Shown: positions 31,226 to 51,882 of the stretch, in pieces | How positions within the stretch are numbered: position 1 is the stretch's first letter | Layout of the letters: each line of letters starts with the position of its first letter | Origin: Laetmonice hystrix | Taxonomy: Eukaryota | Length of the DNA: 64,000 bases | Assembly: GCA_965235115.1 (NCBI GenBank) | Contig: OZ249436.1 | Location: 31,808,001-31,872,000 of the forward strand | Direction of reading: 5' to 3' | Position numbers and translations under genes: made by a program | The notes under the pieces: generated by a model | What the model was told of the DNA's origin: nothing | Seen by the model: only the letters and a program-made list of their open reading frames with translations | The model's database searches: none

Positions 31226-33295
31226 GGGCAGTTCTCCATCAGAGAAAGCTAAAACACGAAAAATTTAAAATTGTCCAGTCCCCTAATAACCATGTCTGCT
31301 TAATAGGTGAGACCTTATAGGATATGGTGCTGAAAACCATTTTCCATTACCTTATCCCAAAAATTTGTGGCGTCACTTTGAATTTTCATCATTTTTATGG
31401 CCTTCTAAATAAGCTTTTACCTCAATTTTGACAGTACCAGCCCATATATCTTGAAATATATCTTCCACACTTTAATTACTCAAAATGATAACTTCAACCT
31501 GCATGGTTACCAATAACTTTAGGCACTGGGCTCTAGCTCTTTCATGGTTGTAATAAGGGGAGGTGACATTCTACCAAGAAAATGTGTAATTCCGTTACCA
31601 AAAATGATGAAAAAGTTTCAACAGAGAGAATATTTCCTTGAATAAATCGATATCCTTCAGAATCCTCTTTTGATTGTGACATAAATGAATAATGATCAGA
31701 GAGTTTTCCCTCTAACTTCACATATTTCTGTAGAAAAGTGGTAACGGAATTACATTAGTAACGGAATTACATACGGTAACGGAATTAGTTATCATCAATG
31801 TCAGCAATTCCATCATTTTGTCCAGTTATAGCAATAAAAATATGAAAGTTAGCTCATTTTCACTGGGTATTATAACAAACATCATCATTAGAATCAGTTT
31901 ACAAGTTTTTTTTAAGTTAAGAACCTAGGAAAGCAATCGCTTGATTTTGTGTTTCTTCATGAAATATTATTGTCTCTCATTTAATTAATTCTGAGGATAG
32001 ACGTTCCATTTAGTTGCTATTTGCTGCCCAATGACTTCTACTTCTATGATATGCGAACTCTCCATGTTCAGGTGAAAAAATATCTATATCATCAAAATTT
32101 ACACGTTTCATTATAGCTAAAACTTTAGTAAAAGTGGAAAAATAAAGGGGATACACATAGAAAATGGAAATGATATTGAAATCACGCTCTCTAAGAGCTT
32201 TCTTTTGATATAAAATTTATGCAGATAATTTGGGGCGAAGTGATGTACCAAAATCATCAACAGAGAAAACACAGGCCTTGGTAATCACCTCTCCGAAAAA
32301 CAAGGGTGCTTTCTCCCACGTCCTCGTCTTTTGATGTTCTATGAACACGTATTTATAATAGATCAATATTCCAGGAAGGAGATCCTTTATACTTGAATTA
32401 TTATTATTGGTGTTCAGATTGAATTTCAAATGCAATGTCGCTAAAATACGATATTGACATGAATACTAACTGTGATAATATTATTTCAACTTGTTGGTCA
32501 GGCACTATCTAGACAAACTTTGTGAATTTGAAAAAAAATGTTATAATGCTTCGTTATTTGCTCCTGAATGCTGGAAATCATGTATAGTATCCTATACATT
32601 TCACATGGAAAATGAAACAAAGAGGTATTAATGAAAACATTTACGTATAAGTGTCACTGGTGTGTAATATATCAATACAAATTACTTACGGAAAGTCTGT
32701 CACCAAATATTGTAATTCCGTTACCAAGGTACCATTGGCAGTATGGTTATTTGTCCTTGAACGTTAGAAATTTACTCCAGTCATTGACTAACAGACACCA
32801 TTAATGCAGTTGGCATCCAAATAAAGAGTTCTAAATTAAATTATAAACATTGGTATTGCAATGTTTCGGACAAGTAATTCCGTTACCAAATTTTGTAATT
32901 CCGTTACCATGTACCTGATTTTTTGAATAAGCCACATTCATAAGTTAATTGTAATTTCAATATTTTAGTATTTTAAACACGGAGATAACATCTTCAGCTC
33001 TTCAAACATAATTTTTTTCGAATTTGGAGTCATAGAATTCACAGGAATTCTGATAAAACTGCAAAGAAAAAAAAAAAGCCAAATTCTCTGCGTAATTCCG
33101 TTACCACAGCATTTGGGCTTGTAGGTCCTAACCTGCACCACCTATATCAAAGATGCATTTTCTGTTCAATAGAGTACATCCGGTAGTATAGTAATAAACC
33201 ATGTTTAACATGATCTGAATAATTTCTTATCCACGGAAGAGCAAAATGCAGTGAAATTTTGCTCTGATTGTAATTCCGTTACCGGAGAATTGCCC
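31226..33295. mobile_element. Non-autonomous DNA transposon, Sola2-like, nested in the mariner
   Basis: TIR GGGCAGTTCTCC / GGAGAATTGCCC, 4-bp TSD TTCT (31222-25, 33296-99), many internal GTAATTCCGTTACC motifs. Superfamily inferred from GRG termini and 4-bp TSD. Confidence 0.75.
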
Positions 33296-33453
33296 TTCTA
33301 CTTTTGTACAATGATTTTTGTTTTTAGCCCCACGGAAATGTTATCCAAGCTATTGAGTTGTAACATTAACAACTAAGAGACAACATCATGAACTGATATT
33401 AAGAAAAATTTCATTGAATTACAATCATTACTTTTTGAAATATTGAAGTTTAA

Positions 33454-33793
33454 AAGGTGCTATTCGTCTCGCACAGAATGGCATTTCTTCTATCATACAT
33501 TGTGCACATAGTACTAGAAAAAATTCCTACCAATACCGTTGGCCTAATAAACCTTCTATTAGTTTGTGTGCAGCATTTGAAACCTATCTCGGTGCGCACC
33601 GAGATAGAGCCATTTCCTATGGTGGGGCGTGTCAGGGTCTCCACAGGCCTTCTGAGAGAGCCCCATTTGTGCCGTTATCCATGAAAAATTTTGATTTCCT
33701 TTGTTGTGAATCTATTTCCATGATAGGTGGGATCACATAAACGTCAACAAAATTAAAAATAAAAAAATTGAATTTTTGTTCACGAATAGCACC
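33454..33793. mobile_element. Kolobok-like MITE in the mariner right TIR
   Basis: TTAA TSD, TIR GGTGCTATTCGT / ACGAATAGCACC; removing it restores the mariner TIR. Confidence 0.75.
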
Positions 33794-34077
33794 TTAAAGT
33801 TCGGGGCGTTTTTTTTTATCCACCCGATATAACAAATACTTCCATTTTTAAAAAGTAAGTTGGTGTGCGAGTGTAGTGACCCCTGGTGGTGAGTGGAGGA
33901 ACTATCCTGTACTCTGGCTCTGGGAGGGTAGGGTATGGATAGATGGCCACACCACTATCTTTGGGTGGGAGTACAAGGCGGGAAAATACGGCGATCTATT
34001 GGGTAGATACAGTATCTGCTGTTGTTGATCAATGCTAAAACCACAGATTAAAATTGTCAAATTATACTATGGGTTTT

Positions 34078-34157
34078 ACGTGGTACATGTGGCAAATTAA
34101 TTTTATGAGTCCAGGAAAATTCTCTCAAGTCCTTGAGAAGTCCTTGAAAATTGACGA
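34078..34157 (+). repeat. DNA-transposon end fragment, also present at ~881-993
   Basis: tacatgtgg..aaattaattttatga..tctctcaagtccttga..gaggaacaagtgta.gaacc shared; a related opposite end lies near 30012. Confidence 0.6.
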
Positions 34158-34340
34158 GGAACAAGTGTAGGAACCCTCGTAGCAACTATATTTTAACAAT
34201 ACATGTATTGTAGTGAACATTTTTAAACTGAAAAGTTATACGTGTACATGTATTGTTATAATTGATGCTAATATTTTGGTTTCATTATTTAAGTTCCAGG
34301 TCAAGGTTCAAACTTCAGAAGGAATGATCTCTCTCTGACC

Positions 34341-35204
34341 ATGATGCCTGATAAGGAACAAGTGAAGAATCTCCTTGTTGAAACAGTGACACTTCTATGT
34401 AAGAACAGCCTTGGATACAAAGACCACCTACGTGTTGAGGGGCTCTTAGGTGTGGCAATTGATGACAAGGATGTCTTTTTTCTTCATATCAGTGAAAACT
34501 TTCTAAATACACCTGCAGTTTCACAGACTTCAGATCCTTCAACAAGCACAGAAACAGTAAAAGACCAGAATATAGGCTCTGATTCAAATTATCAAGATCA
34601 TGAGGAGCATTTTATGCAAAAATCCAAAAATCCTGTTGACTCTGTTAAGTTAAAAGATGAACCCACAGATTCAGACGATGATTTGGTCATGATTCCAAGT
34701 CCTGAACTTCGCCCTCCAGACATGGTGGCCCAACGTGCAAGCAGAATAGCTGGCCAGCGTCGACCCCCCTCAAGCCCACGACCTAAGTCTCCAATACGTT
34801 CTGCAAGTTATGCTAACAGAAACGATATATCGGTGTACCGAAACAGCTTTGCTGAGACAACTGAGTTGGGGCATGATATGCAATATGTTATACAAAGTGA
34901 TTCCGATGAGCCACCAGAAAAACGTTTGGCTTTAGAAAGAAATGAAACTACCTTTGATGTGACAAGACAAGAGAGGTATTTGGACAGTGCGGCCAAAGAT
35001 ACAGAAAACAGCTCAGAAAGAGATGCTAGGTACCAACAATCTGGATGGACAGATGTACCACCAGGTGGCAGCACGACAATCAAGGTTGAGATGCCTGAAG
35101 GGAATTCACAGTATGAGAGTGAAGAACAAGGACTGACACATTCAACGCCCTATGTATGGACGGTCGCACCCACGAGTGAAGAGGGTGACCAACAGACCAG
35201 GGAG
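34341..35204 (+). CDS. Gene 2 shared exon: N-terminal domain (EQVKNLLVETVTLLCKNSL..VEGLLGVAIDDKDVFFLHISE) plus acidic/disordered linker
   Basis: ATG in acc-ATG context after acceptors at 34293/34299; 288 codons to GAG|gtaaga (phase 0); VKLKDEP and IKVE SUMO-like motifs. Confidence 0.85.
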
Positions 35205-35561
35205 GTAAGACTCAGGGCCCAGGCCCATCCTTTCCCTGACCAGTCCTTTACACACTTAGTTTACCATTCCAGGACTCCAGCTGGGTTCTTAAAGTTCACA
35301 CCATCTTATATAAAAATTATCACTTCAAGATCATATGCATAATATGCAATTTTTGCTTAGATTTTCTTGATAGAAATGATTAATATAGAAAGAAGGTGGA
35401 ATGTACTGTTCAATTACAGCAGGGATCCTGGATTGAATGTCACCTTTTTGTAAGTAGGGTCACATAAAACAAATTGCATTGTTATCATTCATGACTTACC
35501 TTTTACATCTTCAGTGGGGAGAATTTGTTTTTAAAAATAATTTGTTGGCGTTTTGGAATAG

Positions 35562-36990
35562 GATTTCCAAAGATATATTGCCCAATCCTGGAACAAAAAT
35601 ACGGTGAAAAAGACAAATTCGGTGACAAAGAAATTTGAGGCGTTCGTCACAAAGCAGGGATTTCAGAAGAAGCTGGTTGAATTTCTTCCAAAGGAACTCG
35701 ATGCTCTGATCGGTAAGTGGTATTAATTTTGAAACAAAATCATAATATTTATACTTGCTGCCATTTAAATTTCTATCGTCCTAAGGCCTACCTATTATAT
35801 TACAGTCCTCCCTCGCTATAGCGCCAGCCTTGGGACATAGGCGCCGTTGGCGGTATAGCGAGGGTGGCGTTATAGCGAGGTATATATATGCATGGACGCC
35901 AATCTTGAACCTGTACACCCAGCCAACCACCGTTCCCCGTATTTTTTAATGGGCATGGGCCTGGTCAATTTGGTCCAGCCCGAGTTACCACCCTGTGTAC
36001 ACCTTGTGCATTACAAAAGAAGTTTACTTCATCTCTGTAAGTCTAATAAAGGGAAATTGATCACAAAGTCCTTTAAAGTTTAGGTATTATTCGCTCTGAC
36101 CATATTCAGACATGATTGTGAACTGAACTGACCTCAAACGTGATGAAACCCTGCTTCCCGCCCACACTGGTGCCTCACCAAGTTCATTGCGTAACACGTA
36201 ATGACCTAATAATATGCACTGGCGCTACACGCTGGCGGTATAACGAGGGCGAATCTAATAGGTTTTAATATATTTGGACATGGAAGAGGCCTGGCGGATG
36301 GCGATAGCGAGAGTTGGCGGTACCTATGGGGAAAATACATTGGGATTTCTGTGCAAATACATTTTGGCGTTATATGCGAGGGTGGCGGTAAAACGGGGGG
36401 CGCTATAGCGAGGGAGGACTGTATATTATATTATTTTAAAATCATTTCCAGGTCAGTGGATCCTTAATGAAAGGAAACCAGACGGAGAGGAATATGAACC
36501 AGATACCCTAACTTCGAACCATAGGGCCTTGGATCGCTATTTAAAAGAAGAGGGTTTCGAGAAATGCGCATCAAGGGAGATTTTGGCGGCAAAAAGAAAA
36601 CATCTGAAAAGCTTGGGTCTTGGAAATAGAAAAAATAAGGCAGAAGCTCTGACTGTCGACGATGAAGAAAAGCTCTGGGAGAGTGGAAGTTTGGGGAGAA
36701 GTAATGCAGACATCCTACAGAGAACCGTATGGTTTCTTCTCACAAAGCAGTTAGGGTTTCGAGGATCCTCTGAGGCCCGGCAGCTATCTTACGGAGATCT
36801 AGAGGGAAAGCATGACATTGACGGTTCCGTATATTTTGAATGGACTGAAAACGCGTCAGAAATAAGACAGGGAGTCTCCAGTTCAGCCAGATCATTTAAC
36901 CCCAAACTTTTCCAAAATACCGACGATCCATCGAGATGCCCAGTCACCCTTGTAAAAGAGTTCTTAACCCACCGGCCAATGACAATGTAG
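35562..36990 (+). CDS. Gene 2 alternative 3' module: Crypton tyrosine-recombinase-derived (DUF3504/ZMYM/QRICH1-like), exons 35562-35712 and 36452-36990
   Basis: Phase 0 acceptor; NKNTVKKT..ELDALI|GQW..RKPDGEEYEPDTL..LDRYLKE..GLGNRKNKAEALT..EEKLWESG.LG..GFRG..EARQL..RCPV. TAG at 36988-90, with homology continuing to ~37095. Confidence 0.8.
35803..36421. mobile_element. Tc1/pogo-type MITE inside the intron of the Crypton module
   Basis: TA|CAGTCCTCCCTCGCTATAGCGCC ... GGCGCTATAGCGAGGGAGGACTG|TA. Confidence 0.9.
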
Positions 36991-38516
36991 CAGCCAGATA
37001 GTCCTTTTTTCCTCCAGGTGAATAGGGCCAATACAGTGCAGGATGCTATCTGGTATAAAGCCCGTCCAATTGGAGTGAATGCGTTGAACTCATTAAGCCC
37101 TAGTTGGTTTACAAGTTATGTGATGTTTATGATTTGTCCTTACTATAACAATGTATCACGAAAATAAACTGTGGCGTTTCACAAAAGAATATGTCTGCAT
37201 TGCGGTTGTTTGATATATAAATACCGGGGTACTTCTGAAGTTCGTCTGTCACTTTTTGCAATATAAATGTTCGATTTGTACTAGCGAAAATAGATTTCGA
37301 ATATTGTCAGCATTAATTTATTCTTGGAAAAATCGCGGATATATTTGTTTATGGAATTCTGGAACTATATTCATTGCGGCCTGTTACCAAGGGTGTGCTC
37401 GCTTCCTTCGCTTCAAGGAATTGCACGAGAATGCAAGGAATTAATTGAGAAGGCCAGAAATTTCAGTGTGACGGTCAGGAATTCCACTGCGAACTGAAGG
37501 AAAGGAATTTGACTGTGAAGCAATGTAATTGTCTGTGAAGACAAGGAATTTCACTATGAAGCGACGTAATTGTCTGTGAAGCCAAGGAATTTCACTGAGA
37601 AACAGACATTTTCTGTTAGTACAGCAGTTTCTACATCTGTCAGTACAGCAGTTTGTACATCTGGGCCACCGTAGTACAGTGCCACAGGCTTGCTACCTTC
37701 GTGTATCAATGGTATCTAAGTCAGTGCACCTCCTGGAAAACTTTCTTGTGGCAAGCAGATGCGAAAAACTGATACAACCCTATATGGCAAGCAGACGTGA
37801 AAAAACGATACAGTGGCCTCTAAAAAATAGGCTGAGCATATGTGAAAACTGATAGGCCTACAGTGGGCAACTGAGGTAGCAAGCCTTTCTAGGGCCCTCT
37901 GACAGCCAGATAAACGAACGCGGGTCAAAGGTGGATGAATGTGACGGTCGACAAACGTCGACAAACTCTAACATATTAGTAGCTGTATGACAAAAAGCAA
38001 TACATTGATATTGTCATGGAATTTCCTTGTATTTTCATGAAGCATAATTAAGCACAGAGGGAAGTCAAAATAGAACACAAAACCACCAGGGTACCAGTGA
38101 TACAAGTCTGTGAAGTTTGAAGAGGCCCTGTCGAGTCAAAAAGAGACTCCTCAAAAGAGAGCTACTCCTGCTTGTACTCATTGTTTCACACGATTTTTTT
38201 AAGAAAAAAAACTTGACGATTTCGAAAGATTTGAGCCTTCACCTTAGTTTAGCATGGAGAGAATGAAGTGATGACTTCCTTTATCATCACTTCCAGGAAT
38301 TTATTGCATTAGCATTTCTAAGTATATTTCCTAAATATTGACTTTTAAGATTATGGAATTGTGAGAGCGTTATAAGCTAAGTTTTAAGCGTATTTTAAGC
38401 TACCAAGTTTGACAGAGCTATATTAACATAAAACATGCTGTTGTCAAAGAAGTAGACATAGATTATAAAAAAAAATCTATTTTGTTTTACAATTCGTCTT
38501 TTTATTTTTTTTTTAG

Positions 38517-38574
38517 ATTATTCAGCATCAGACTGGAGGTATACCACATACGGATCATATCAGTCTCAAGACAG
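38517..38574 (+). CDS. Gene 2 linker exon (IIQHQTGGIPHTDHISLKT), phase 0 to 1
   Basis: Long poly-T tract + ag, donor ACAG|gtagtg; supplies the phase needed for exon 41060. Confidence 0.65.
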
Positions 38575-39164
38575 GTAGTGCTAAGGAACATTTAAATAAT
38601 TAAGGGTTAACTTGATTTTACAATGAGTAAGCCTTTACTATATGTCAGATGACTGAAGCTAGCCCAGCATACTAACTTTTTTTCATAAAGAGCAGGAAAT
38701 CTAATCATGGAACTTCAGTATTCTTAGTGTAGATAAACCAATAATTCTACATCCAATGTTGGCAGTTCCTTCCGATTTTCCTGTACTACCCCAAACGCTT
38801 TCAACATAAAACACAATCCATATCAGAGGTGTTGTATGCCTTTTGATCTGAGAAAAAAACAGGAAAAATTAACATGTATTCGTCAGTCGTGCTCCATCGA
38901 CCTGTTGTGCATTTGCGAGTTGAGGTTCTCAGCCTCTGATACTTTTCATAGCTGTAACCGACAATGACGACCCGTCCTAATACTTATGGTATGGGTACCC
39001 GGTAACGACTAAACTGTCAACTCTGATGCAATGTTCAAATCGGAAAATAGCCGATGTCCAGACCAAACGTCCAAAGACTTATTTGTCTTGTCAGCAAGCC
39101 TGGTAATATCTGGTAATACCTGGTAATTTCCGACTAAAGCTGTGGCAGTGGACGGGGGACGTTG

Positions 39165-39342
39165 CAGGGGCGGATCTAGGGTCTATCTTCAGGGGGGGTC
39201 CTAGGGGGGGTCCAGCATAAAAAGGGCAAATAGAGGGGGGTCCGTGGTAAAAACAAAAGGCATTTTGGTTATAAAAAAATTAATTTGGCAAATTTGAGGG
39301 GGGGTCCGGACGTCGCCGACACCCCCCCTGGATCCGCCACTG
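39165..39342. mobile_element. CAG..CTG MITE with 5-bp TSD CGTTG
   Basis: TIR CAG(G/T)GGCGGATC, flanking CGTTG on both sides. Confidence 0.8.
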
Positions 39343-39702
39343 CGTTGGCTGTTGCAGCAGGTAATGCAGACAGTGTCTTTTTACAGTACAAGTACATGTT
39401 AGGGAATCTCCTTCCGCGTGGGGCAAGAACGTGAGAATGCACGAGATAATATGTGCTGACGTCACGGTCTATGGTTGTAAACACTGGGTCTATCGGCCAG
39501 CCGCCTGTAATTTGTGATAATTTGTGGTATCAGGTCAGTTCCTTGGTAAATAATTTCAAATGATATCGTTTGAGTCAGACAGAACCAGTTTGTGATTTTT
39601 GAAGGGGATGTAGAACTATTGGTTTAAAAAAGCAGTTTTTCGTTATGAAAATAACTTTAATAAGCAGTAAAAGCAAATTGCAATATACATGTATGCAATA
39701 TA

Positions 39703-40990
39703 CAGTGCGTATGAAAAAAAGGTAATCCAAATTCAGGGGGCTAATATGCCAAGATAATTATGTGTGACAATCCACATCTTGGTGTACCAATTAAGAGGAG
39801 CCCATCAGCTATCCATTGATACCTTTTGTGCATACCGGTAATACAGTAAACTCCGCCTAAGTCGAAACTTTTGGGACCAGCGTTTTTGTGTGGGCTTAGA
39901 GAAATGACGAGATGCACATAAGTCACCATTATGTCGATTGATGCATAAGATGACATATGGACTCCATGTGTATATCGATACACTGTAGCTATACACCGTC
40001 AGCACAAATTATGATAACACTGACGGCTATATAGGGCATCTCCAGTTAAATATACATGTTTACACGTAGCTGCAGTGTATTTCATGCTACTCAAAGAAAT
40101 TCCATCAACTCAAGAGAAACGAAAGAAAATCTACGGTAGGTAGCAGAACGTCACATTTGTGACGTTCGGAGGCTCATAATCTACCAGCGCCATGATTAGA
40201 ACACGGTGAGAAACAGATACCCGCTTGAAAGGTTCATTTTCCAGTACTACTGACCGGGCGGCCAGGCTTACGTTATAACTCGGGATTCTCCGTGTCGACT
40301 TAGAGGTAGAAATTTATATGTATAAACGTTACTTGGGGCCAGATTCGATGCGTCGGTTTAGGCCAAGTGGCGACTTACAAGTATCGGCTTTGACGATGTA
40401 TTCTACATAGAATTAACATTAGACCAAATCGGGACTTTGGGAATTGCGTCGACTTAGGTGATATGTCGGCTGTCACACATTACCGAGTATTCATTTATTG
40501 AAAATGACCAGTTCGAATTGTTTTTTCCCAAAGTTTGAAGAACCGGCGCAAGTCGGTCTGAAATGGAAGCAACACTTATTGACTGCCAAGTTGATTATGT
40601 AAGATTTGGACGGTGGGTTGGTTATCATTGGTTACATCATCCTGTCCTTCAAGGTGGGTATTTAAGAGGGGCCAGGTTACATGATATCCTTTGTGAATGA
40701 AGTCCAGTCATTCCTAAGAATATCTTGTTTGTTCTTCATTTTAGGTTGGAAAACGTCAGTTGCATTACTGACTTGCACCGCTTCCTCAGACTTGGAGAAA
40801 GGCGAAATGAACAGGGCATTTATACTAAATATCTACTTGGTCATGTGCGACGGCAGATACGCACGAAAGGTATTAATGGAAGGCCGAGGTGCTCCTCTTA
40901 ATTGGTGGCCGACATGTAACTTGTCACAGTAAATGACCTTCACATATTAACCCCTTGAATCCGGATTACCTTTTTTTTGGATACGCACTG
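39703..40990. mobile_element. Tc1-like non-autonomous element containing a nested pogo-like fragment (39844 to ~40468)
   Basis: TA|CAGTGCGTAT..AAAAAAAGGTAATCC..ATTCA.GGGG and its reverse complement |TA; the inner element starts TA|CAGTAAACTCCGCCTAAGTCG and lacks its right tip. Confidence 0.8.
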
Positions 40991-41059
40991 TATAAATACT
41001 GTATCCCAATCAATTCTACCATTCTTCTTTATTTCCAAGTTTCAAATATCAAATTTCAG

Positions 41060-42012
41060 CGTCCAGTGCCAACCATTGTAATAGAAGTCTAAACGGAGCC
41101 CCGCAAATATCTCACAACCATCTACGCTCACTGCTCAGCATGCCAATCTCAACCGCCGCAGAGACACCCACCTGTACTAATGCACCACTAGTACAGGTAG
41201 ACATCCCATCATTCGACTTGGAGCCCGCTGGACCAGGGATTCGTATTAGTAGGCCGACACAAGCAGAAACCCCAGACCTCTGTTGTGTTCTGCCTAATGA
41301 AACAGAGCCAAAGATTTTCACCAGTGTGCAAAAGGCTCACACCCAATTGTGCTCACTGCTTTTGACAGGAAGTTTACCAGATCAAGGCACACCTGCGACC
41401 AGCACATCACCTACACACAGAGACCTCCCTCATGTACAGTCAGGAAGTTCAGGGTCACCTGCGGGAACATCAACCAATACACAGAACGCAGAAAGGGACC
41501 TCGCTCATATAATACCTCACCAGTCAGGCACACCCACAGAGAGAGCAGCAGTAAGGACAGACTCCTCTGACTTGTCACCAAGTGGGTCAGGAACAGCCAA
41601 TAGCACCCAAGCAGCAACCCCAGTCCCATGGTTAAATCCACAAGTAACAGTGTCGGATACAATTAGCAGTTTACAAACAAAGTCCCACCTCCGCGCATTG
41701 CTTTCCACGATGACCACACCAAGCCAAGGGACACCTACCAGCCCAGAAGCATTAGGGAAGAATACTCCTGTGCTCCCACATTCTTCAGGGACACCCAAGA
41801 GGAACCGATCAATTCACATAGATCTCACTGGGTCACCGCCGCAGAGCCCAGAGACACCACCCGAAATATCCAACAGTAAACCAGCAGAAGATATTACCAC
41901 CCAAAGTTTATCACCACGGCTTGGCGGGGGTTATTGTCCAATATGTTGTACAGACGTTGGCTCTGAAACCGTGCTTAAAATGCACATGATCTTTCGGCAC
42001 GGCAAGCATTGA
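41060..42012 (+). CDS. Gene 2 alternative terminal exon A: S/T/P-rich region plus one C2H2 finger
   Basis: tttcag| phase 1, in frame with ORF 41140-42012; CPICCTDVGSETVLKMHMIFRH. Confidence 0.75.
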
Positions 42013-42203
42013 CTTTAATCTTAACATGGTTAAATTATAATTGTTGCACCAAACAAATCCAAGTACCAGTCAATTACGAGAGAAGAAACCTCTGTTACTT
42101 TGTGGGACTTGAAGATAACTACCTTGGACGTTTGCGTCCAATTTGTTTTCGATTAACCAATCACAGCGCTCCCTTTGATTAGACTTCATTAGTTTCTAGC
42201 CTA

Positions 42204-42351
42204 CAGTAGCGTACCCGGGGGGGGGGGGGTGCTTGGGTTGCTCAAATTTTTTTTTTGCGCTTGTTGCCCATAGCCCCCTCCCAATTTGCAGCGCCTATGA
42301 CGTTGGTTATTTCCAGCACCCCCCTGGGTCCAGTTTCTGGGTACGCCACTG
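42204..42351. mobile_element. CAG..CTG MITE with 5-bp TSD GCCTA
   Basis: CAGTAGCGTACCC / GGGTACGCCACTG, GCCTA on both sides. Confidence 0.8.
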
Positions 42352-44461
42352 GCCTATGTGCGTAGTTAAGACACCTGTGTACCAACTACCTCTTCGAATC
42401 CAAGGCGAGCGGTGATATTTTCATAGATCAAAGCTACATGCCTAGGTTATGTACGTGGATAAATAATAAGACTGCATTGTTGCCTTTTCTTTTAAAGAAT
42501 ATCAACTGACTTCAACGATAGGTTCAAGGTTTATAACTCGAAAACCTGCCGCTGAAGCTTCCCAGTAGCTGTTCCCTGATCCGAACCCATACCTTGCCGA
42601 ATGAACAGTAACTGACCAAACCCTATACATGTATAGTACAGTATATTTCCCCCTTCTCTAGATTAAGAATGTTCAAGTGGATTTGACTTATGAATACCGC
42701 CAACACCCATCCTGGCTGTCGGCCCACTGACCCTTGTTTTGGTTGAAGATCGTCAGCCCCAGATGGCAATTGTCGGCCAATATAAGATAAAGTGGGCAGT
42801 TGTTTTTACATCAGTCTTTAAGAAAAGTTTTCTTGTTCATAATGGCATGTTATAACACAAACATGCACGTACGTGCTATGATAAAACTGCTGACAACGTG
42901 CGTGTGCGAGTGTAGCGGCCCCTGGTGGCAAATGGCGGAACTAACCTCCGGCCTGGCATGGGATGATTTTGCTTGGCTTTGGAAAGAGCGCCGCACCCCG
43001 AACTTTAAGCTGGGACCATGGGGTAAAAAAATGCGGTGATCTTTCTGGTATACGGTACACACCAAAGCCGGCTCCAAGGACAACTTAGACTTAGTACCAG
43101 ACACCGCTGAATTGGAGATACTGTATAAAAATGCCCAATAACTTTATTCCTTCGGCAAGGAAATTCATTGTGACTGTGTACTATTCATCAGTGTAACTCT
43201 TACAAATAGAGATGACAACCAGTTGAAGAAATTGTGCCATCTAATGATAACCCAAAAATGTTGCATCATAACAATAGAAAATAGAAAATGTCTGCCATGA
43301 AATTTTTGTGAGCAAGGTGTGTACGGAACTTAGATCTAAACTTGAAAACAGCAAGAGTTATAATTCCCTTTCCATGGTGATCTTGGAAGTACTGGTTTCT
43401 TTCACCCTTATAGATTAAACTAGATTTTTGCTATAGTAGGCCTTAATTCCTAAAACATGTATTTATCATTTAAAGTGATACATTTAGAGATATTTCGCTA
43501 ATCAGTATTTTCCAATGTCATTTACAGTTTGAATAAACAATATTGATAACCATAATTACATGTATAGGAAATGATCATTTTTTAGCCTTAGCTTAGAAAG
43601 CAGTAGTTTCTGTAGATCTTTGATACAGGTATTACGTCAAGCTTGTGCTGTGTTTGTGCTCACTGCAAGGGCTAGTTATACGAGTGAGGAGGGCTATTAA
43701 TTAGGTGGTATTTTGGTTGAAAGTAACAAAAACAAGTTCTTTCGCTGTTTTGGTGATGTGGTCTTTCAATCAAATTGATTGATAAACAAAAGGCGCAAGA
43801 CTATCCTCATTTTCCGTCAGAAATCAGCATTTCAGAGCAAGCCCCGTTAGACTGGGAATGGGATGCGCGCATCCATCGTCGGTTTGTTTACAGAGACGTA
43901 TGAGACGCACATGGTACCTATCCATGAGGTCAAGAGGCGGTTCAAACAAATGCCTCATTTTTCTGTATGGAATTCAGAATATAACTCTAGAATTAGCTTT
44001 AACTGTCAGGAGAAAAGTCAATCCGTGCCCTACAAAGTGTGCCTTTAAGAAAATGAGTCACTGTGTAATAAACTAATAAGCAAATTGTTTCCAATTGTTG
44101 AACAGTCTATATCCCAAGTTTACAGCAGTTCCTATTAGAGTTTCACAAGAAATATTCCAAAACATATTTGTTTGTAAAAAAAAACCTATAAGATAAAACA
44201 AGGGGTGTTTTTATTTTTATTTTATTTTTTATTTTTTGGTATGAAGATTTGTGAGGTGCTAGGAGTTCTTCGGTGTAATTTATACGTAAATGAAGCCTAA
44301 ATATGTAGGGACGGACTTACTGATATTGGCTTAGGGTATATAGAAAGCTTCTTGCGTACATTTTTATTGAAATCATGGCTTGCCCAGTAGTTAGAGAGAT
44401 TTGATAAAGCATGGCATGCACCTTTAAACTTAAAAACTGATTTATAATAACCCTGTTACAG

Positions 44462-44917
44462 GCAGAAAGGAAGGAGGGTGGGCCCTGCAACAATCGTAGA
44501 AGGAACCACTTCAAAAGTAGATGGGTTGAGGAGACATCTAAGACAGCGAGCCTGGCCACGGCCCCAACGCGCAAGCCCTCAGTGCCAGGATGGCCGCCCG
44601 TAACCCTGCATCAGGACGTGGGCAAGTCCGTGTTTCACGGCATTCTTGGGACGGACTTTTACAGTACTTGTCCAGTTTGTCAGAAGATGTGCAACACGCC
44701 GTCCCAACTCAGGGTGCACATGAGGGTGCACACTGGGGAGAAGCCCTACAGGTGCACAGTTTGCGGAGCCTCCTTTTCGCAGTCTGGACACCTTCACCAG
44801 CATAAGAGGAGTCACTCGGCAGACCGGCCGTACAAATGTGATATCTGTGGTGCAGCATTTAATTTGTCACATAACCTCAACAGACACCAGAAGGTACACA
44901 TCAAAGAGACTGACTGA
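44462..44917 (+). CDS. Gene 2 alternative terminal exon B: three C2H2 fingers
   Basis: ttacag| phase 0, open into CPVC..H TGEKPY CTVC..H SADRPY CDIC..H; ATTAAA at 44947. Confidence 0.85.
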   Translation, partial: AERKEGGPCNNRRRNHFKSRWVEETSKTASLATAPTRKPSVPGWPPVTLHQDVGKSVFHGILGTDFYSTCPVCQKMCNTPSQLRVHMRVHTGEKPYRCTVCGASFSQSGHLHQHKRSHSADRPYKCDICGAAFNLSHNLNRHQKVHIKETD

Positions 44918-46883
44918 CTAACGGGGCCTAGCGCCTGGGGTATTGCATTAAATGTAAATGTAACTTCCTTAAAGACAACTTTATAAATATCGTTTGGAAT
45001 CTTCACTCCGCCCTTATACGTGTCGCGGACATTCGTTTGTAGCAGGCATCTAATTTAACTGTTCCTTAATGCTTTGGGTTATGAAAGACTGATTTGCCGA
45101 AATCGGGAACCCCATCCAACTGATTACACCACGTCACCTTGAAGAATATGACAAAAAAGAAAGCACCATGTTCTTTCATGACTTGCAAAAAGGTGATAGA
45201 ACCGAAGGCATATGAATATTATGCCGTTCCACCTTGATTATGCCACCAGTTAACTGGTCAGACGCAGCCGGAATGTACAAGATTCGTAGAGTTTAAGGTG
45301 AAAAGGTACCAGGTGAAATGGCGGGCACTAAAAAGCCAGGGGTCTGCGCTATGTGACAGCAGATATCAAGGTACATGTACTTTGAAGGTAGGGTCATTTG
45401 TTGATTAAGAAATTAATTTCTTTTTTTTGGCGTTATTTGTTGATTAGAAAATTAGTTTATTATTTTTTTGCATGGACGTCAGAAAATACAGAGTTAGAAT
45501 TATAGTATGGTGTATAGTCCAGAGAGAAACGTTTAGTTTGACTCGATACCTTGACCATCTCTGGACTTGGCGACTGGGTTTGAAAACGGATTGGGTGGAC
45601 TAACAGACTGGGTTGGAAGATGTTCAGTCTGATCCTTATTTTCATATCACTGGGTGAGGTATCTTCTATTGTCGGTATATAATAATTGACGACATATTAC
45701 GATATTGTTGCTCAAAATATACCGTTTTTATGCCATTATTGAAAACTTTGATATTGGACCTTCATGGGACACGTTGAGATTGTTGTCTACCGACCTGGAG
45801 GCGGAGGAAAAGCAAGTGCTTAATTAGCAAGGTCGAATTAGAAGATCCCGCGGGGGGGGGGGGGGGGAAATGTCCACGGGACAGCCGGCAGGGGGCTCAG
45901 TTGCGGAGGGGGGGGGGGGGGTAGGAGTAGAAGAACCAGAACGATCCCCATTCCCATAAGATTAAAAATATTTTTTAATTACTACTATTTGCAATTTTAT
46001 CTGGAACAATATACATTTTTATTGTATGCTTCATAACACTGACCCCCAGAATCTTACCGTTTACCGTCTTGACACGTGGCAATACAAGGGACTAGACTGG
46101 CCATTGCATGGCCATCTGTGAAGGCTTTAAAAATGAGGGTTGCAGGGGCGATCATTGAATAGCCCTCTGAAGTTTCTTCAAAAGATGAACATTTTGAAAA
46201 GCCAAGAAAACGTTGTAGCTATATTGTGGCTAGGTATGGTTTGTCCAGTATACGGGGTCAGATCAGGAAATAGCTCAACCATTCCAAGAACCTTTTTCGC
46301 CTGACCATGAGGTCCAAATCCCCGCATGTGGCTATCTTTTGGGTGAAGCGATGTATTGGGTAGTATTTTGGGTAATTACTATTGAAAAACATAACGTCGT
46401 GAAGGTGATCATTCGAGTTTGAGGGACAGCTTTGTCTCCAAAATGTAGAAAAGAATCGATACCAAATCAACAGTCGAACTAGACCTACTGGTACTTTTAA
46501 TAAGAGACTTGCAGATATACGAATGTGTTTGTGATGATTTCATTTACCGAATGTTACGTGGATAACTTAACAAGTCCGCAAAGATTAGATGCTCAATCGC
46601 TTATTGTTTTCTGAAATACGTTCATGGAAATATTTTATTATAAAGAAAGCGGGGTGATATTTGGTTTCACACACATAATCAACTTGGCAATTTTTTAAAA
46701 TACTATAATGATCACTTCCTGTACAGGGGGAGGAGCAGTTATGGCATTTGTATATAGGCAGGATGTAATTTTATTAGCAGGACGGGAAGATTTAATTGAA
46801 ATGATACAAAAATTAGTATTCCCAATGATACATGAATGGACTGGCCCCGCATCCTGAGTGACAGTCTGTCCTTGCTCTTCCAG

Positions 46884-47204
46884 AAGTGTCCAGGAACCAG
46901 TGATGATCAGGCAGTAATGCGGCATTCCTATGAGCCTATCCCAAGTGTACCAGCTGAGTTGTTTGGGTACAACTCCAGTTCAAACCCTAGGGCAAATAGG
47001 TTTCAGCCGGGCAAACGGTCGCAGGGCAAACCGCACGTATGTGAGACCTGTGGAAGTGACTTTACAACTGTGGGTAACCTGAGGCAGCACCAGAGGATAC
47101 ATGCCGTAGTGAAACCATACCAGTGTTCTGACTGTGGGAAGAGCTTTGTCAGGAGGAACCATCTAACCCAGCATTGGCTAAGGCGGCATTCTACTAGGCG
47201 GTGA
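46884..47204 (+). CDS. Gene 2 alternative terminal exon C: two C2H2 fingers
   Basis: cttgctcttccag| phase 0; CETC..HQRIH..KPYQ CSDC..HWLRRH; AATAAA at 47599. Confidence 0.85.
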   Translation, partial: KCPGTSDDQAVMRHSYEPIPSVPAELFGYNSSSNPRANRFQPGKRSQGKPHVCETCGSDFTTVGNLRQHQRIHAVVKPYQCSDCGKSFVRRNHLTQHWLRRHSTRR

Positions 47205-48066
47205 CGTCATTGGTTAGTGGATGCCAAGTGAAAACGAATTGATTCGTTGAATGCACTCTTGTTTTTCGACAGCAATAGGCTATGAATACTTTTGATACTG
47301 CTAAGGCATTTTTTTAAGACAGATTAGGATTTTTTTCCATATCTGTAAGGAGAACATGCTAACATTTGTTGTTGCTGTTTGCAAGTAGAAACAATTAACT
47401 CCACAGATACCGATTTCACGTCCCGAAGTTGTTTGAAAGGCGAAGGGGAAACCCTTCCATCACTAAAGAAGCAAGCATTGGACTTTTCTGAGTTTCTTTT
47501 TTTATAAAAACCATAGGTTGCGTTATTCCTGGAAAAAATCCATTCAGTCCTACACATGTGAATGTCTTTAAACTCCATATAATTATGTCCACACGACGAA
47601 TAAATTTTGTAAAAGAAAATCTTTGTTTTTCTGGGGTTGGTGGATGGACACTAATATTAGTATGGTAAAAAGTTATTTGCGGTTTTGCATCATATGAAAG
47701 CTTAAAAACAAAAGTTGGAGAACTTAGATTAGGGTAGTAACGAGCCCAATTTCATTATTTGAACCAGAGGTTCATGGACACCATTGGCGATTATAAGTTG
47801 GCACTGGCATAGATTTGGATTACGAATCAGTAGGCCTATCGGTCCATGATGGCATCGATGATTCATTTGGAATATGAAATAGATAACAGGACCTCTCCCG
47901 AAAGGTTTGGGGGAGCAACCAAAAATTGACAACATATTTCAATTAGGCCTACCAATAGTACCTTACTGTGGTACGGTAGTTCAAATTCTCACTGATAAAT
48001 TATTAGTTATTTTAGTTTATTAATTATTTCGTGCATTATTTTATGGATTTGCTGTTGGTCTTGCAG

Positions 48067-48417
48067 GTATCGAATCAGCCCTCCAGAGGCCGGGAGACAG
48101 ATGTGCCTGCCGCAAACCATGGTGTGAAGGACGGACGACATCGGTGTACATTCTGCGGCCGGTTCTTCCGAAACACCTCCCGTCTCACCATTCACCTGCG
48201 CTCACACACAGGCGAAAAGCCGTATTCCTGCGAGACGTGTGGAGCAAGGTTCTCGCAGTCGTCACACCTGGGCCAGCACGTAGTCATTCACACCGGCTTA
48301 AAACCGTACAGGTGTTTTCTGTGTCAAAAAAGTTTCTATCGGAGAAGCTATCTTATCAGACATTGTACTCTGCAACATTCCACGGCAACCCTGCCCCCCA
48401 TGGCGGGGTCCGAGTAA
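48067..48417 (+). CDS. Gene 2 alternative terminal exon D: three C2H2 fingers
   Basis: tcttgcag| phase 0; CTFC..H TGEKPY CETC..H TGLKPY CFLC..H; AATAAA at 48999. Confidence 0.85.
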   Translation, partial: VSNQPSRGRETDVPAANHGVKDGRHRCTFCGRFFRNTSRLTIHLRSHTGEKPYSCETCGARFSQSSHLGQHVVIHTGLKPYRCFLCQKSFYRRSYLIRHCTLQHSTATLPPMAGSE

Positions 48418-49497
48418 TTCATCATGGTCCAGGGAGTATGTCACGGGCTGTATGTACTTAAGACCTGCTGGTACCGTAGACGTGTGATGGTGTAAATTTG
48501 GATGTACAGATCTGCAGGACACTTCTATTAAAGGGGCCTGGTCAATTAAAAGCCACAACATCGACCCCCTCTCATATTAAACAACCTAGATTTACCTGCA
48601 ATCTCGTAATAATTCGAAAGCAAAACAACTGTGCATGTAGTTGTAATATGGAGGCTCCACGCAGCCACACCGATTTGCCATGGCGGTGGTTTGTAACTTG
48701 TAATTTTCTTACATTTGTTGATCGCCATATTGAAATAATTATGTTGGTATTAAAGGATGAAAGGTACGTTTCATATTTGGGGGAATTGACGGAGTCCCTT
48801 TCATTTTGTCATGACCAGAAAAAAAAAATAACCCCGATACACTGGCTATAATTGAAGCCATGAGGCGTTGTGTCATAGACATAGACCTATACCATACTAG
48901 GTTATAGGATATAGTTCTTTCTATGTCTATGGTTTAATGCAGTACAATTTAATAAGGTATAGTCAATAGTTTTTTATTAATAGACTTATTAATATAACAA
49001 TAAAGCTGTACAATTTCCCTATGTACCATGTCCGTGTTTTTAGTCTTCGGATTTCAACGGCGACGGGAAACCAAGCCCAATAAGGCAAGAGATCGATTTG
49101 CAATAGTTGGGGGACCAACAGGATGTGAGTTTGGGGCGCGGCATCCGTTTTGTTGTTGTTTTTGTTTTTCTAAAACCGAACAAGATTTCGTTTAAGGAAA
49201 GAAGTATCGAAGTAGGCCTATTTAAGCATGAGGGAATAGCGTATATAGCCTAGGCATACTTGGAGGGCCCCTCCCGCCTCCCATTGGCCTTTGATCCACA
49301 CTGGGCCTACCCTAACCGCTAATGAGACTCTGCCCCAAGTTAGCGCCAGGACCTGCCAAATCTTTTTGCTTACCAAATGGGAGAAACTCCCACTTGAGGT
49401 AATCCCAGTCGGGAGATAATTCGCGACGAAACGGTACCAGTGATCAGACGTCTTGTAAATACAAGTATAGGCTATTGATGTATAGCATGCAGAGATA

Positions 49498-49752
49498 CAC
49501 TCTGAAGAAATAAGGGTTCTTAGAGGTTCTTTGTAGAACTTTGGACGTCCACCTGGAACCAAAGGGTTCTATACGAAGTAAAAGGGCTCCTTGTAGAAAA
49601 GTTAGGTTTCACATGGAACCAAAAGGTTCTGTACGGGGGAGAAGGGTTCCTTGTAGGAAAATTAGGTTCCAAGTGGAACCAAAGGGTTCTATACGGAATA
49701 AAAGGGTTCCTGTTATGAAGGTAAAGTTCCACATTAAACCTATAGGTTCTTT
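49498..49752 (+). mobile_element. End of a CACT-terminated (EnSpm/CACTA-like) element with ~60-bp subterminal repeats
   Basis: CACTCTGAAGAAATAAGGGTTCT followed by 3-4 units containing GGAACCAAAGGGTTCT; related fragment at ~58755-58890. Confidence 0.55.
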
Positions 49753-51240
49753 AGGCCCCTATACTCAGAAGAAGGTTGTTCGATCAATATTAATTTAAGG
49801 ATCTTGACACTCTATGACCTCTGTTTGAAAAGGTGAGGCACACGTTTGAACAGATGCAATTTGTCATTTATTATTACAGTGATAAATATATTGAAAAAAA
49901 TATGTTTAGCATACACCACCTGCCTGTAAGGATTAGGAACCTTTATAAACCGCTTAGCCGTGGTATATCCGTCGCACTTCATTATCCATACGCAGTCGAT
50001 GGACTACACAACGTTGGGCCCTGAACGAGTATAATGTGACGCTCTCTGACGTCAGCAGAGGGATTATTTTGCCATCTATACCTCCCTAGGAAGGGTTATT
50101 AATCGAAAACGTGACCTATCGATGACGTCTGCATAAATTAAAAGTTCACCAACTCCAATTCAGTCTCCGCCGACGTTTACCAAAGCCTGAACATGCTTCT
50201 GGAAAGGAAATGTCATGAAAATGATCTACGCCCTGGAACTGAAGATTGGCTGTATCTTGCCAACATTTACGTTAGATTGTGTTTGTTTACATGTCGAAGC
50301 GAGCCTTGTCGCACCTGCCAGCTACTGTCAGCTCACAAGGTGGGCGGGGCATAAAGACAGTTCCACCAATAAGATTAGAGGTTTGAAAATTTGCATATGG
50401 GCCGAAAGCATTATGGGATGCCGATGGATGACACAACGGAATGGTCACGGGAAGGCGGAACTGGCATGCACCAACAAACGCCAAAAAATGGGAGTAAATT
50501 ATGTAGTGTCAAGTGCTTTATTTAATATAAAATTTGGTTTAAAAAGGCATCAGACCCTGGCCCTTGGTGGTCACCCTCGGGTCTGGCGTCAGATAACCAT
50601 TCCCTCGGGGCTTCGAGGCCAAACAGTACAGGGAGGCCAAACAGTACAGTGAGTGAGGAGTCCCTACATGGTACTGGTTGGCCTAGTACCCAAGCAAAGA
50701 GTACAGTGAGGTAGTAGAAATGGAAGGTATAGGCGAGGGGCATCTACTGTTAACATTTCGAGAGTATACTGAAATGGGAAGTATACATTTCACAGCCATT
50801 TATCTGTAGCGAACGTACGTGACGGAAATGTTTTACAGTAATTTTGAATACTTTCAAGAAGCACACGATATTTATACAAAGCCAACACATGGAGGCAATC
50901 ATATTCCATGGTTTTGATATAGAAATATTTCGATGCCCCTTAAACAGTGAAGACTGAAGTGCTCTCTTTTTTATGAGCGAACGTACGTGATGAATACTAG
51001 GCAAAAATTCCAGTAGCGAATTACAATACTAGATATGCATACAAACATTGCAATAAAGACGTAATATTATATATCCCTACAGTACTGGCTACCGTTGTAT
51101 GCAAGCAGACAGTACAGGGAGGCCAAACAATACAGTGAGGGCAAACAGTACAGTGTGGCCAAACACTCTCATTTCGGAAGATGTGTGTAGGGGGGAGGGT
51201 CCATTGTCCTGCTCGACCACCAAAGCTCCTTTTTTAGGGG

Positions 51241-51337
51241 AGTCGCGGTGGCCGAGTGGGCATGGGTGTCGACACCTTATGCTATGCGAATGGGTGCAGT
51301 AATCTTGGGGCCGGGGTTCGATTCCTGTAGAGGACTA
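51241..51337 (+). pseudogene. tRNA-like / tRNA-SINE head, copy 1
   Basis: A box TGGCCGAGTGG 51249-59 and B box GGTTCGATTCC 51315-25; acceptor and anticodon stems pair poorly. Confidence 0.5.
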
Positions 51338-51573
51338 TACAACTTTTCTCTTTAGGGACATTGTCAAAGTAATTGGGTTACCCCTGATGCCCGTGCATTT
51401 CAAAAGAAAAATACAGTCTACGCCAGTGCCAGGATTACCTTAACAGTCAATGTTCGGTAGAAATCATGTGTAGCTCTATCTAGGAAAATATGGATTCCGT
51501 CTTATTTCGGAAGATGTGTGTAGGGGGGAGGGTCCATTGTCCTGCTCGACCACCAAAGCTCCTTTTTTAGGGG

Positions 51574-51670
51574 AGTCGCGGTGGCCGAGTGGGCATGGGT
51601 GTCGACACCTTATGCTATGCGAATGGGTGCAGTAATCTTGGGGCCGGGGTTCGATTCCTGTAGAGGACTA
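51574..51670 (+). pseudogene. tRNA-like / tRNA-SINE head, copy 2
   Basis: Same sequence as 51241-51337. Confidence 0.5.
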
Positions 51671-51882
51671 TACAACTTTTCTCTTTAGGGACATTGTCAA
51701 AGTAATTGGGTTACCCCTGATGCCCGTGCATTTCAAAAGAAAAATACAGTGAGAGCTGCCCACATGGACTGACTAGCCTTATACTCGAGCAAACACTACA
51801 GTGAGGGTTCCCTACATGTATTGACTGGCCTTATGACGCCTCACTGTAGTGTTTGCTCGAGTATAAGGCCAGTCAATACATA

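What the first reader, a model, noticed from the sequence alone, without database searches (positions are those of the whole stretch)
34341..48417. One shared non-BTB N-terminal exon with at least five alternative DNA-binding 3' ends (lola/mod(mdg4)-like cassette locus)
Seen: the shared exon ends in phase 0 at 35204. Downstream modules each have an acceptor, their own stop codon and a downstream poly(A)-type hexamer. They are a Crypton module (35562, phase 0), a linker plus 1-finger exon (38517 phase 0 to 1, then 41060 phase 1) and three zinc-finger exons (44462, 46884, 48067, all phase 0) with different recognition helices. Known: insect BTB-ZF genes (lola, mod(mdg4), broad, fruitless, tramtrack) use this layout. 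Inference: this is a convergent system built on a different ~55-aa N-terminal domain, which I recall from uncharacterised annelid ZF proteins. It would make a family of factors with a common interaction domain and swappable specificity.
Basis: partly seen in the sequence, partly recalled or inferred. Interest (0 to 1): 0.9.

Follow-up and report, generated by a model that had tools for sequence, protein, structure and literature searches.

The report
Worm gene family swaps DNA-reading ends
In this animal, probably an annelid worm, about forty related gene-regulator genes start with the same unnamed small protein domain, and at least ten are followed by interchangeable zinc-finger endings (five endings of mixed type in this gene, over eighty in one relative), a layout described in fly genes that use an unrelated domain.

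Summary
The window is a small member of a large system. The genome holds 38 exons with the same 55-aa domain, which has no Pfam match; 26 of 29 end in a phase-0 donor. One paralog is followed by at least 85 same-strand zinc-finger cassettes, two others by at least 35 and 12. In 115 of 132 cassettes the best acceptor is phase 0 and in frame, and 79 of 79 two-finger cores differ at DNA-contact positions. Relatives give seven read-through versus spliced pairs, one ending in FLYWCH. Structural look-alikes are annelid and mollusc clusters named up to 'isoform X25'. It chains finger exons after their stops (45370 to 46884, 47212 to 48067), so private poly(A) sites are not the rule. No single constant exon was seen with two different ends. 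Cis versus trans splicing is open. The scan noted lola-like arrays on other DNA (mostly BTB genes), none with this domain; nine literature searches found no description.

The parts
34300..35204 (+). Constant coding exon: acceptor AG ending at 34299, ATG at 34341, 288 codons, phase-0 donor
   Evidence: RNA-like contig 25 of run X4 follows 34814-35202 and then continues for 101 letters elsewhere
34347..34505 (+). Unnamed N-terminal domain (residues 3-55): helix 3-23, beta hairpin 29-40 and 44-55
   Evidence: AlphaFold2 mean pLDDT 84; no Pfam family; 1123 relatives at E<=0.001; 38 matches in own genome
35562..35712 (+). Crypton-derived end, exon 1 (phase 0 in, phase 1 out)
   Evidence: By elimination a possible partner of RNA contig 25 (inference)
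36452..36990 (+). Crypton-derived end, exon 2: partial DUF3504 (profile 3-119 of 162). Stop at 36988-36990, with DUF3504-like residues continuing behind it, so the domain is cut short
   Evidence: Next-best genomic match 46% identical; RNA-like contig 36456-37055 with no differences
38517..38574 (+). 58-nt linker exon (phase 0 in, phase 1 out)
   Evidence: Strongest acceptor of 852 AGs; depth 0 in run X4 in this bin, which shows nothing either way
41060..42012 (+). Ser/Thr/Pro-rich exon ending in one atypical C2H2-like finger
   Evidence: No Pfam hit; no other genomic match to its last 70 residues
44462..44917 (+). Finger cassette A, three C2H2 fingers (contacts TSQV, QGHQ, LHNR)
45002..45370 (+). 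Non-coding RNA piece behind cassette A, ending in a donor at 45370 that is spliced to 46884. A TATAAATA box lies about 20 nt upstream of its start
   Evidence: run X4 record 29; GT-AG check; sequence
46884..47212 (+). Finger cassette B, two fingers (TGNQ, RNHQ), stop at 47204; donor at 47212 spliced to 48067
48067..48597 (+). Finger cassette C, three fingers (NSRI, QSHQ, RSYR), stop at 48417, no Met before its fingers; RNA contig ends at 48597 after ATTAAA at 48576

Best explanation
This gene belongs to a family of about 40 transcription-factor genes in this genome, and the family is also present in other annelids and probably in molluscs. Each gene has one constant exon (55-aa alpha-beta-beta domain plus an acidic disordered linker) ending in a phase-0 donor. 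At least ten paralogs are followed by DNA-binding end exons; in the three arrays read these are phase-0 exons of one to three C2H2 fingers, each with its own stop, while other ends are Crypton-derived DUF3504 or, in a relative, FLYWCH. The donor is spliced to one acceptor per mRNA, and that cassette supplies the C-terminus. Cassettes further downstream often stay in the 3' UTR or are chained by post-stop splicing, because many have no room for a poly(A) site. Cassettes multiply by local tandem duplication and diverge faster at DNA-contact positions. Shown: the anatomy, phase bias, purifying selection, and splicing of constant exon to a finger exon in relatives. Inferred: that one gene uses many ends, that choice is by competing 3' splice sites in cis (about 0.55 against 0.25 for trans-splicing), and that the domain multimerises so that short finger modules act in combination.
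For: Phase-0 donor best in 26 of 29 paralog exons; one of 30 ran off its locus. Paralog L004 has 85 finger ORFs in 76 kb, 85 of 85 on its strand, 73 of 85 with the best frame-blind acceptor in phase 0 inside the ORF; all AGs split 673/625/578 and second-best sites 34/27/24. A second stretch holds 12 '+' cassettes behind L013 and 35 '-' cassettes behind L006, 42 of 47 phase 0. No further domain exon was found inside these arrays. Same-strand finger ORFs lie within about 30 kb downstream of L002, L003, L005, L007 and L016, L009 and L021. 17 of 72 spacers from stop to next acceptor are 150 nt or less, and 21 of 73 cassettes have no Met before the first finger, so they cannot all be genes. Contact fingerprints are distinct in 79 of 79 and 31 of 31 two-finger cores; dN/dS is 0.24 in the framework and 0.47 at contacts over 11 pairs. 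Read-through versus continued protein pairs split at the exon end: P0151/P0225, P0136/P0253, P0284/P0216, P0286/P0152, P0407/P0345, P0409/P0414 and P0008/P0009. Three homologous constant exons, P0345, P0395 and P0371, continue after the same motif into three unrelated ends. Paralog L011 has a phase-0 acceptor before a QRICH1 plus DUF3504 frame. Mollusc clusters with TM 0.81-0.83 over residues 1-60 are named 'isoform X9' and 'isoform X25' and carry C2H2 in 81% and 46% of members. Tandem copies of the domain in P0010, P0011 and P0106 fit a domain that pairs (inference).
Against: No RNA joint from 35204 to a finger exon was displayed. Contig 29 runs unbroken through 46884 and 48067 from other donors, which suggests direct joins are absent or minor in that one sample; depth sums also leave no room for contig 25 to continue into 38517, 44462 or 46884 (inference). 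None of the retrieved proteins showed one identical constant exon with two different DNA-binding ends. Cassettes in an array are tandem duplicates, so the 115 of 132 count is not 132 independent events. 'Isoform X25' does not say where the isoforms differ. No selector sequence or docking pair was found. 25 of 73 cassettes in the largest array begin AG|ATG, which would also allow stand-alone translation. Only three of 38 arrays were read, one of them in part.
Confidence: 0.8

Rival explanations
1. Same products, but made by trans-splicing as in mod(mdg4) and lola. Internal promoters transcribe runs of cassettes, and the constant exon is joined to them from another transcript.
For: RNA contig 29 begins at 45002, about 20 nt after a TATAAATA box and 85 nt after the stop of cassette A, with essentially no depth over cassette A's fingers. 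Choosing among more than 80 acceptors from one donor without a selector motif is the problem trans-splicing solves in flies (PMC4387717, abstract, passages and one section read).
Against: All cassettes lie on the strand of their constant exon, whereas mod(mdg4) exons use both strands. Strong donors are not depleted in spacers, 23 sense against 14 antisense, whereas their lack is required in mod(mdg4). No shared pseudo-donor motif was seen in the first 0.4-1.2 kb of 29 introns. The contig itself shows cis-type joints. A contig start may be a graph break or a filter effect.
Confidence: 0.25
2. The family system is real, but this locus is a reduced or decaying member. Only one or two ends (Crypton-derived, perhaps cassette A) are used, and the others are left-over or 3' UTR sequence.
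For: The constant exon lacks the PGCSxW motif found in 117 of 254 relatives. The DUF3504 part is cut by a stop. The RNA sample shows cassettes B and C only downstream of a stop or of a non-coding exon.
Against: All three finger exons keep intact fingers, linkers, phase-0 acceptors and distinct contact residues although they have no close relatives, about 50% identity at best for cassette A. Cassette C has no Met before its fingers, so its open frame needs an upstream coding donor.
Confidence: 0.2
3. The finger exons are small independent genes (own promoters, or an operon resolved by a spliced leader) that happen to cluster near the domain exons.
For: 52 of 73 cassettes in the largest array have a Met before the first finger and 25 start with ATG. 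Cassette B has an upstream non-coding exon and an in-frame Met.
Against: A non-coding leader would not fix the phase, yet 115 of 132 best acceptors are phase 0. Spacers go down to 48 nt. Array strand always matches the nearest upstream domain exon, including two arrays that face each other. Domain-to-finger spliced products exist in relatives.
Confidence: 0.06

Closest known systems
Drosophila lola (and tramtrack, broad, fruitless): Tramtrack-group BTB-zinc-finger genes
   Same: Common N-terminal exon(s) with a domain and a long linker; many alternative 3' exons with one or two C2H2 fingers. For lola, 17 of 20 isoforms have different C-terminal fingers (PMC11426971, passages read).
   Different: No BTB: a 55-aa helix plus hairpin with no Pfam hit in 44 members. 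TTK-type BTB was reported absent from Annelida and Mollusca (same paper). Here there are 38 paralogs in one genome and at least 85 cassettes behind one of them.
Drosophila mod(mdg4)
   Same: Over 30 variable 3' exons on common exons, mostly FLYWCH; a relative here ends in FLYWCH (P0009). An internal transcript start is possible at 45002.
   Different: mod(mdg4) uses BTB, both strands, trans-splicing, a U1-binding intron motif and donor-free 3' regions (PMC4387717). Here cassettes are on one strand, donors are not depleted, and trans-splicing is untested.
Effector-domain zinc-finger families (KRAB, SCAN, ZAD, FiNZ)
   Same: Lineage-restricted N-terminal domain on fast-evolving C2H2 fingers in a clustered, expanding family (own knowledge; bioRxiv 10.1101/2022.11.29.518450 seen as a search listing only).
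   Different: Those families diversify by whole-gene duplication with one long finger exon. Here the short finger exon is what is duplicated, behind a shared exon.
Crypton-derived host proteins (ZMYM2/3/4, QRICH1, KCTD1 group; DUF3504)
   Same: DUF3504 in the window (partial) and QRICH1 plus full DUF3504 behind paralog L011.
   Different: Here the module sits as a putative alternative end on the unnamed domain. The link of DUF3504 to Crypton and to these genes is own knowledge plus the Pfam names.
Clustered protocadherin, UGT1 and sDscam variable-exon arrays
   Same: Tandem array of dozens of paralogous variable exons sharing a constant part (own knowledge).
   Different: Those put the variable exons 5' with their own promoters. 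Here they are 3' and encode DNA specificity.

Membership tests
Tramtrack-group BTB-ZF genes (lola, mod(mdg4), ttk, br, fru) | N-terminal BTB domain | tested here: not met
   No BTB hit for the 288-aa exon at E<=0.1 or in 44 domain members at E<=5. The model is one helix and two strands in 53 residues.
Tramtrack-group BTB-ZF genes (lola, mod(mdg4), ttk, br, fru) | Common exon followed by several same-phase 3' exons, each with a DNA-binding module and a stop | tested here: met
Tramtrack-group BTB-ZF genes (lola, mod(mdg4), ttk, br, fru) | Two or more different ends joined to the same common exon in RNA | tested here: inconclusive
   One RNA-like run, with only 15 of 173 joints displayed. Relatives give one end per constant exon. 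Isoform-numbered names in molluscs.
Tramtrack-group BTB-ZF genes (lola, mod(mdg4), ttk, br, fru) | Short C2H2 (1-3 fingers) or FLYWCH ends | tested here: met
Tramtrack-group BTB-ZF genes (lola, mod(mdg4), ttk, br, fru) | N-terminal domain forms multimers | not testable with these tools
   Needs a bench test. Tandem copies in three relatives are only a hint.
mod(mdg4)-type trans-splicing | No strong 5' splice sites between the 3' exons | tested here: not met
   Strong donor words 23 sense against 14 antisense, 10 against 11, and 6 against 3 in three spacer sets. Two post-stop donors are used in RNA.
mod(mdg4)-type trans-splicing | Conserved U1-pairing pseudo-donor in the last common intron | tested here: inconclusive
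   Best matches 7-10 of 11 at scattered places in the first 0.4-1.2 kb of 29 paralog introns, with no control and no orthologues.
mod(mdg4)-type trans-splicing | Exons joined from different transcripts or alleles | not testable with these tools
   No raw RNA reads were offered.
Dscam-type docking-site/selector choice | One intron element complementary to a selector before each variable exon | tested here: not met
   L004 only. Best 30-nt intron bin pairs with 36, 17 and 9 of 73 upstream pieces (7-, 8-, 9-mers); same-sense control 36, 19, 7; shuffled maxima up to 37, 16, 9. No shared k-mer in more than 9 of 73.
KRAB / SCAN / ZAD zinc-finger genes | KRAB, SCAN or ZAD domain | tested here: not met
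   No such Pfam hit. Only one conserved Cys in the domain.
Crypton-derived DUF3504 proteins | DUF3504 domain, with QRICH1 domain upstream | tested here: inconclusive
   Window: DUF3504 3-119 of 162, E 2e-15, QRICH1 not found. Paralog L011: both present.
MADS-box fold | Helix plus beta-hairpin dimer with a basic N-terminal arm | tested here: inconclusive
   MEF2D and SEPALLATA3 appear at Z 3.8 (rmsd 8.8, 50 aligned) and Z 3.7 (rmsd 3.5, 44 aligned), tied with unrelated folds. No SRF-TF Pfam hit.

The most novel reading that the evidence does not exclude
An undescribed system shared by annelids and molluscs makes hundreds of transcription factors per genome from a few dozen genes. An unnamed multimerising domain is spliced, in cis or in trans, to one of up to about 90 tandem finger cassettes or captured transposon domains. 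This is an independent and larger invention of the lola/mod(mdg4) design, which gene annotation misses because cassettes lack start exons. It could give a cell-type or neuron identity code, or a fast-evolving response to mobile DNA.
Probability: 0.65. Interest if true: 0.92.

Novelty: new variant of a known kind. Interest (0 to 1): 0.86.

Why it matters
The constant-exon plus variable-finger design was tied to arthropod Tramtrack-type BTB genes. Here it appears on an unrelated, unnamed domain, in dozens of paralogs, with arrays several times larger than lola's. It would be a clear case of convergent evolution of a gene architecture. It would also change transcription-factor counts in annelids and molluscs: at least 132 cassettes lie in 200 kb here. 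It offers a natural test of how one 5' splice site chooses among more than 80 acceptors with no visible selector, and adds a new N-terminal domain to the short list known on C2H2 families.

Tried and rejected
No RNA holder was listed on record; run X4 was judged RNA-like only from GT-AG joints and empty intron bins. Pfam gave nothing for the domain; the best stray was STN1_2 in 7 of 44 members. PDB by sequence: no match at E<=10. Fold searches: Foldseek none at E<=0.001; VIA best Z 4.1, none at 5 or more, which shows neither a known nor a new fold. Atlas by features was blank twice. Four-copy complex prediction: no verdict, score 0.01, alignment not used. A conserved donor just after cassette stops was not found in 132 paralog cassettes. 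Docking or selector pairing and shared upstream k-mers were not found. Donor depletion in spacers was not found, and no sharp CpG peaks mark internal promoters. FLYWCH matches near domain exons in this genome: none of 13. A one-finger cassette query found only its own array. The tree of 101 two-finger cores is poorly resolved (51 columns, bootstrap unsettled); it shows clustering by array but no origin for the window's three cassettes. The HSF frame at 60018 was considered as a sixth end: it has its own Met and only middling phase-0 acceptors, so it is left open. Earlier notes by place and by sequence gave nothing on this domain. Literature searches listed no paper on this domain or on such arrays in annelids or molluscs. 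The library lacks most subscription papers and I opened no supplements, where such a family could be tabulated.
Full report
Observation. The window is an animal genome stretch (G000:C1:31808001-31872000; 627 Mb in 35 contigs). An exon from 34300 carries an ATG at 34341 and 288 codons to a GAG|GTAAGA donor at 35204, phase 0. Downstream on the same strand lie five modules: a two-exon Crypton-derived part (35562-35712, 36452-36990), a 58-nt exon plus a long exon with one atypical finger (38517-38574, 41060-42012), and three C2H2 exons (44462, 46884, 48067). Joined by coordinates, all five products are open to their own stop. The eight fingers all differ at positions -1, 2, 3 and 6.

RNA. No run was on record as RNA. 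Of four runs laid on 30001-49900, X1-X3 behave as DNA and X4 as RNA. One X4 contig reads 45002-45370, 46884-47212 and 48067-48597, and both joints are GT-AG. So the acceptors of cassettes B and C are used, but from donors behind the stops of cassettes A (44917) and B (47204). By that route cassette C is out of frame and has no Met. A second contig follows the constant exon to 35202 and goes on for 101 letters that were not displayed. The two missing letters are AG, which the tool gave to the downstream piece in both displayed joints, so I infer a splice at 35204. Depth sums exclude 38517, 44462 and 46884 as its partner, and word uniqueness excludes 48067 and 36452, leaving 35562 or 41060 (inference). 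No direct joint from 35204 to a finger exon was displayed; 158 joints were hidden and contigs drop rare forms. This is one sample.

The domain. Residues 3-55 have no Pfam family and no PDB sequence match, but 1123 relatives at E<=0.001 among 50%-identity clusters. AlphaFold2 gives a helix and a beta hairpin at pLDDT 84; fold searches gave only weak generic matches. The named relatives are two annelids, Ridgeia piscesae and Paralvinella palmiformis. The Atlas structure search with a Ridgeia member returns five clusters at TM 0.77-0.85 over residues 1-60, one annelid and four mollusc. Two are named 'zinc finger and BTB domain-containing protein 3 isoform X9' and 'zinc finger protein 37 homolog isoform X25'; both list C2H2 families and no BTB family. 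These are automatic names and leads only. The linkers carry psi-K-x-E words (SUMO consensus, own knowledge) and, in some relatives, PLxL[ST] words (CtBP-binding type, own knowledge).

The family in this genome. Two searches each found 38 matches, mostly on C1. Nearly all are single frames of about 200-480 codons, and in 26 of 29 the best donor in the last 210 nt of the frame is phase 0. I read 200 kb around three paralogs. Behind L004 lie 85 finger frames in 76 kb, all on its strand; two more were seen. Behind L013 lie 12, mostly single fingers. Behind L006, on the other strand and facing L013, lie at least 35, with 17 kb unread. The best acceptor is phase 0 and inside the frame in 73 of 85 and 42 of 47, while all AGs split about evenly among phases. 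Spacers have medians of 356-905 nt and go down to 48 nt; 31 of 72 in the largest array hold an AATAAA. All 79 and all 31 regular two-finger cores have distinct contact fingerprints. Across 11 close pairs, dN/dS is 0.24 in the framework and 0.47 at contacts. Position-only searches put same-strand finger frames behind L002, L003, L005, L007, L009, L016 and L021. The other loci were not read.

Relatives. Most retrieved proteins stop shortly after a Val-Ser/Gly/Arg/Cys pair, the read-through of a phase-0 GT; this holds in 116 of the 117 that carry the PGCSxW motif, with no control run. Seven pairs share the constant part and split at that point into a read-through and a form that continues into C2H2 or FLYWCH. 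For P0414 the cassette's own genomic reading (P0415) begins at the same point. Three homologous constant exons continue into three unrelated ends (P0345, P0395, P0371). I found no identical constant exon with two different DNA-binding ends, which is the main gap.

How it most likely works. One phase-0 donor is joined to one of many acceptors; the chosen cassette ends the protein, and later cassettes often remain in the 3' UTR (0.8 for the system). Cis choice is favoured by the one-strand arrays and undepleted donors. Trans-splicing stays open because of the contig that starts behind a TATA-like box at 45002 and the lack of any selector. One to three fingers read only 3-9 bases, so a multimerising N-terminal domain would give combined specificity. 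That step is inference from BTB, ZAD and SCAN proteins and from tandem copies in three relatives.

Comparison and novelty. It works like lola and mod(mdg4) but is not a member of that family: there is no BTB, and Tramtrack-type BTB was reported absent from annelids and molluscs (PMC11426971, passages read). Mod(mdg4) features were taken from PMC4387717 (abstract, passages and section 8). Other papers were seen as listings only. Nine searches found no description of this domain or of such arrays; supplements were not opened. Earlier scan notes describe lola-like arrays on other DNA, mostly with BTB, and none matched this domain by sequence. Verdict: a real, probably undescribed convergent system, of which this window is a small and slightly atypical member. 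New variant of a known kind, interest 0.86.

Noticed in passing
G000:C1:29172071-29253111 (L004, L031-L039): The best example of the system: one constant exon followed by at least 85-87 mostly two-finger cassettes. It deserves study in its own right.
   Followed up: yes
G000:C1:29327427-29426855 (L013 '+', L006 '-'): Two family members face each other with arrays of 12 and at least 35 cassettes. L003/L019 and L020/L028 also face each other; L005/L009 and L010/L011 are back to back.
   Followed up: partly
L031-L039: 25 of 73 cassettes begin AG|ATG and 72 of 73 begin with A or G; the ATG state needs 17 changes on a weak tree. Unexplained: splice-site preference, ancestry, or finger-only proteins.
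   Followed up: partly
L051 (G000:C1:20800414-20801520): Intact QRICH1 plus DUF3504 frame behind a phase-0 acceptor about 2 kb after the constant exon of L011.
   Followed up: partly
window 60018-62717 +: 899-codon single frame with an HSF-type DNA-binding domain (E 4e-14) and its own Met; probably a separate intronless gene, though a phase-0 AG at 60150 exists.
   Followed up: partly
G000:C8:24.4-29.4 Mb and C19:12.08-12.13 Mb: Large clusters of long poly-finger frames with no match to this domain nearby: a second, conventional zinc-finger expansion.
   Followed up: no
window 55016-57837; 51141-51740: 52-bp minisatellite arrays, and a direct duplication of about 240 nt (51165 and 51505).
   Followed up: no
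window 30866-31223 and 33300-33800: Two copies of a very high-copy repeat (summed depth above 350,000 against about 60) upstream of the constant exon.
   Followed up: no
P0152 / P0286: The read-through form continues with Ala, not Val, at the exon end, which would fit a GC donor in that relative.
   Followed up: no
P0010, P0011, P0106 and others: Relatives with two tandem copies of the domain.
   Followed up: no
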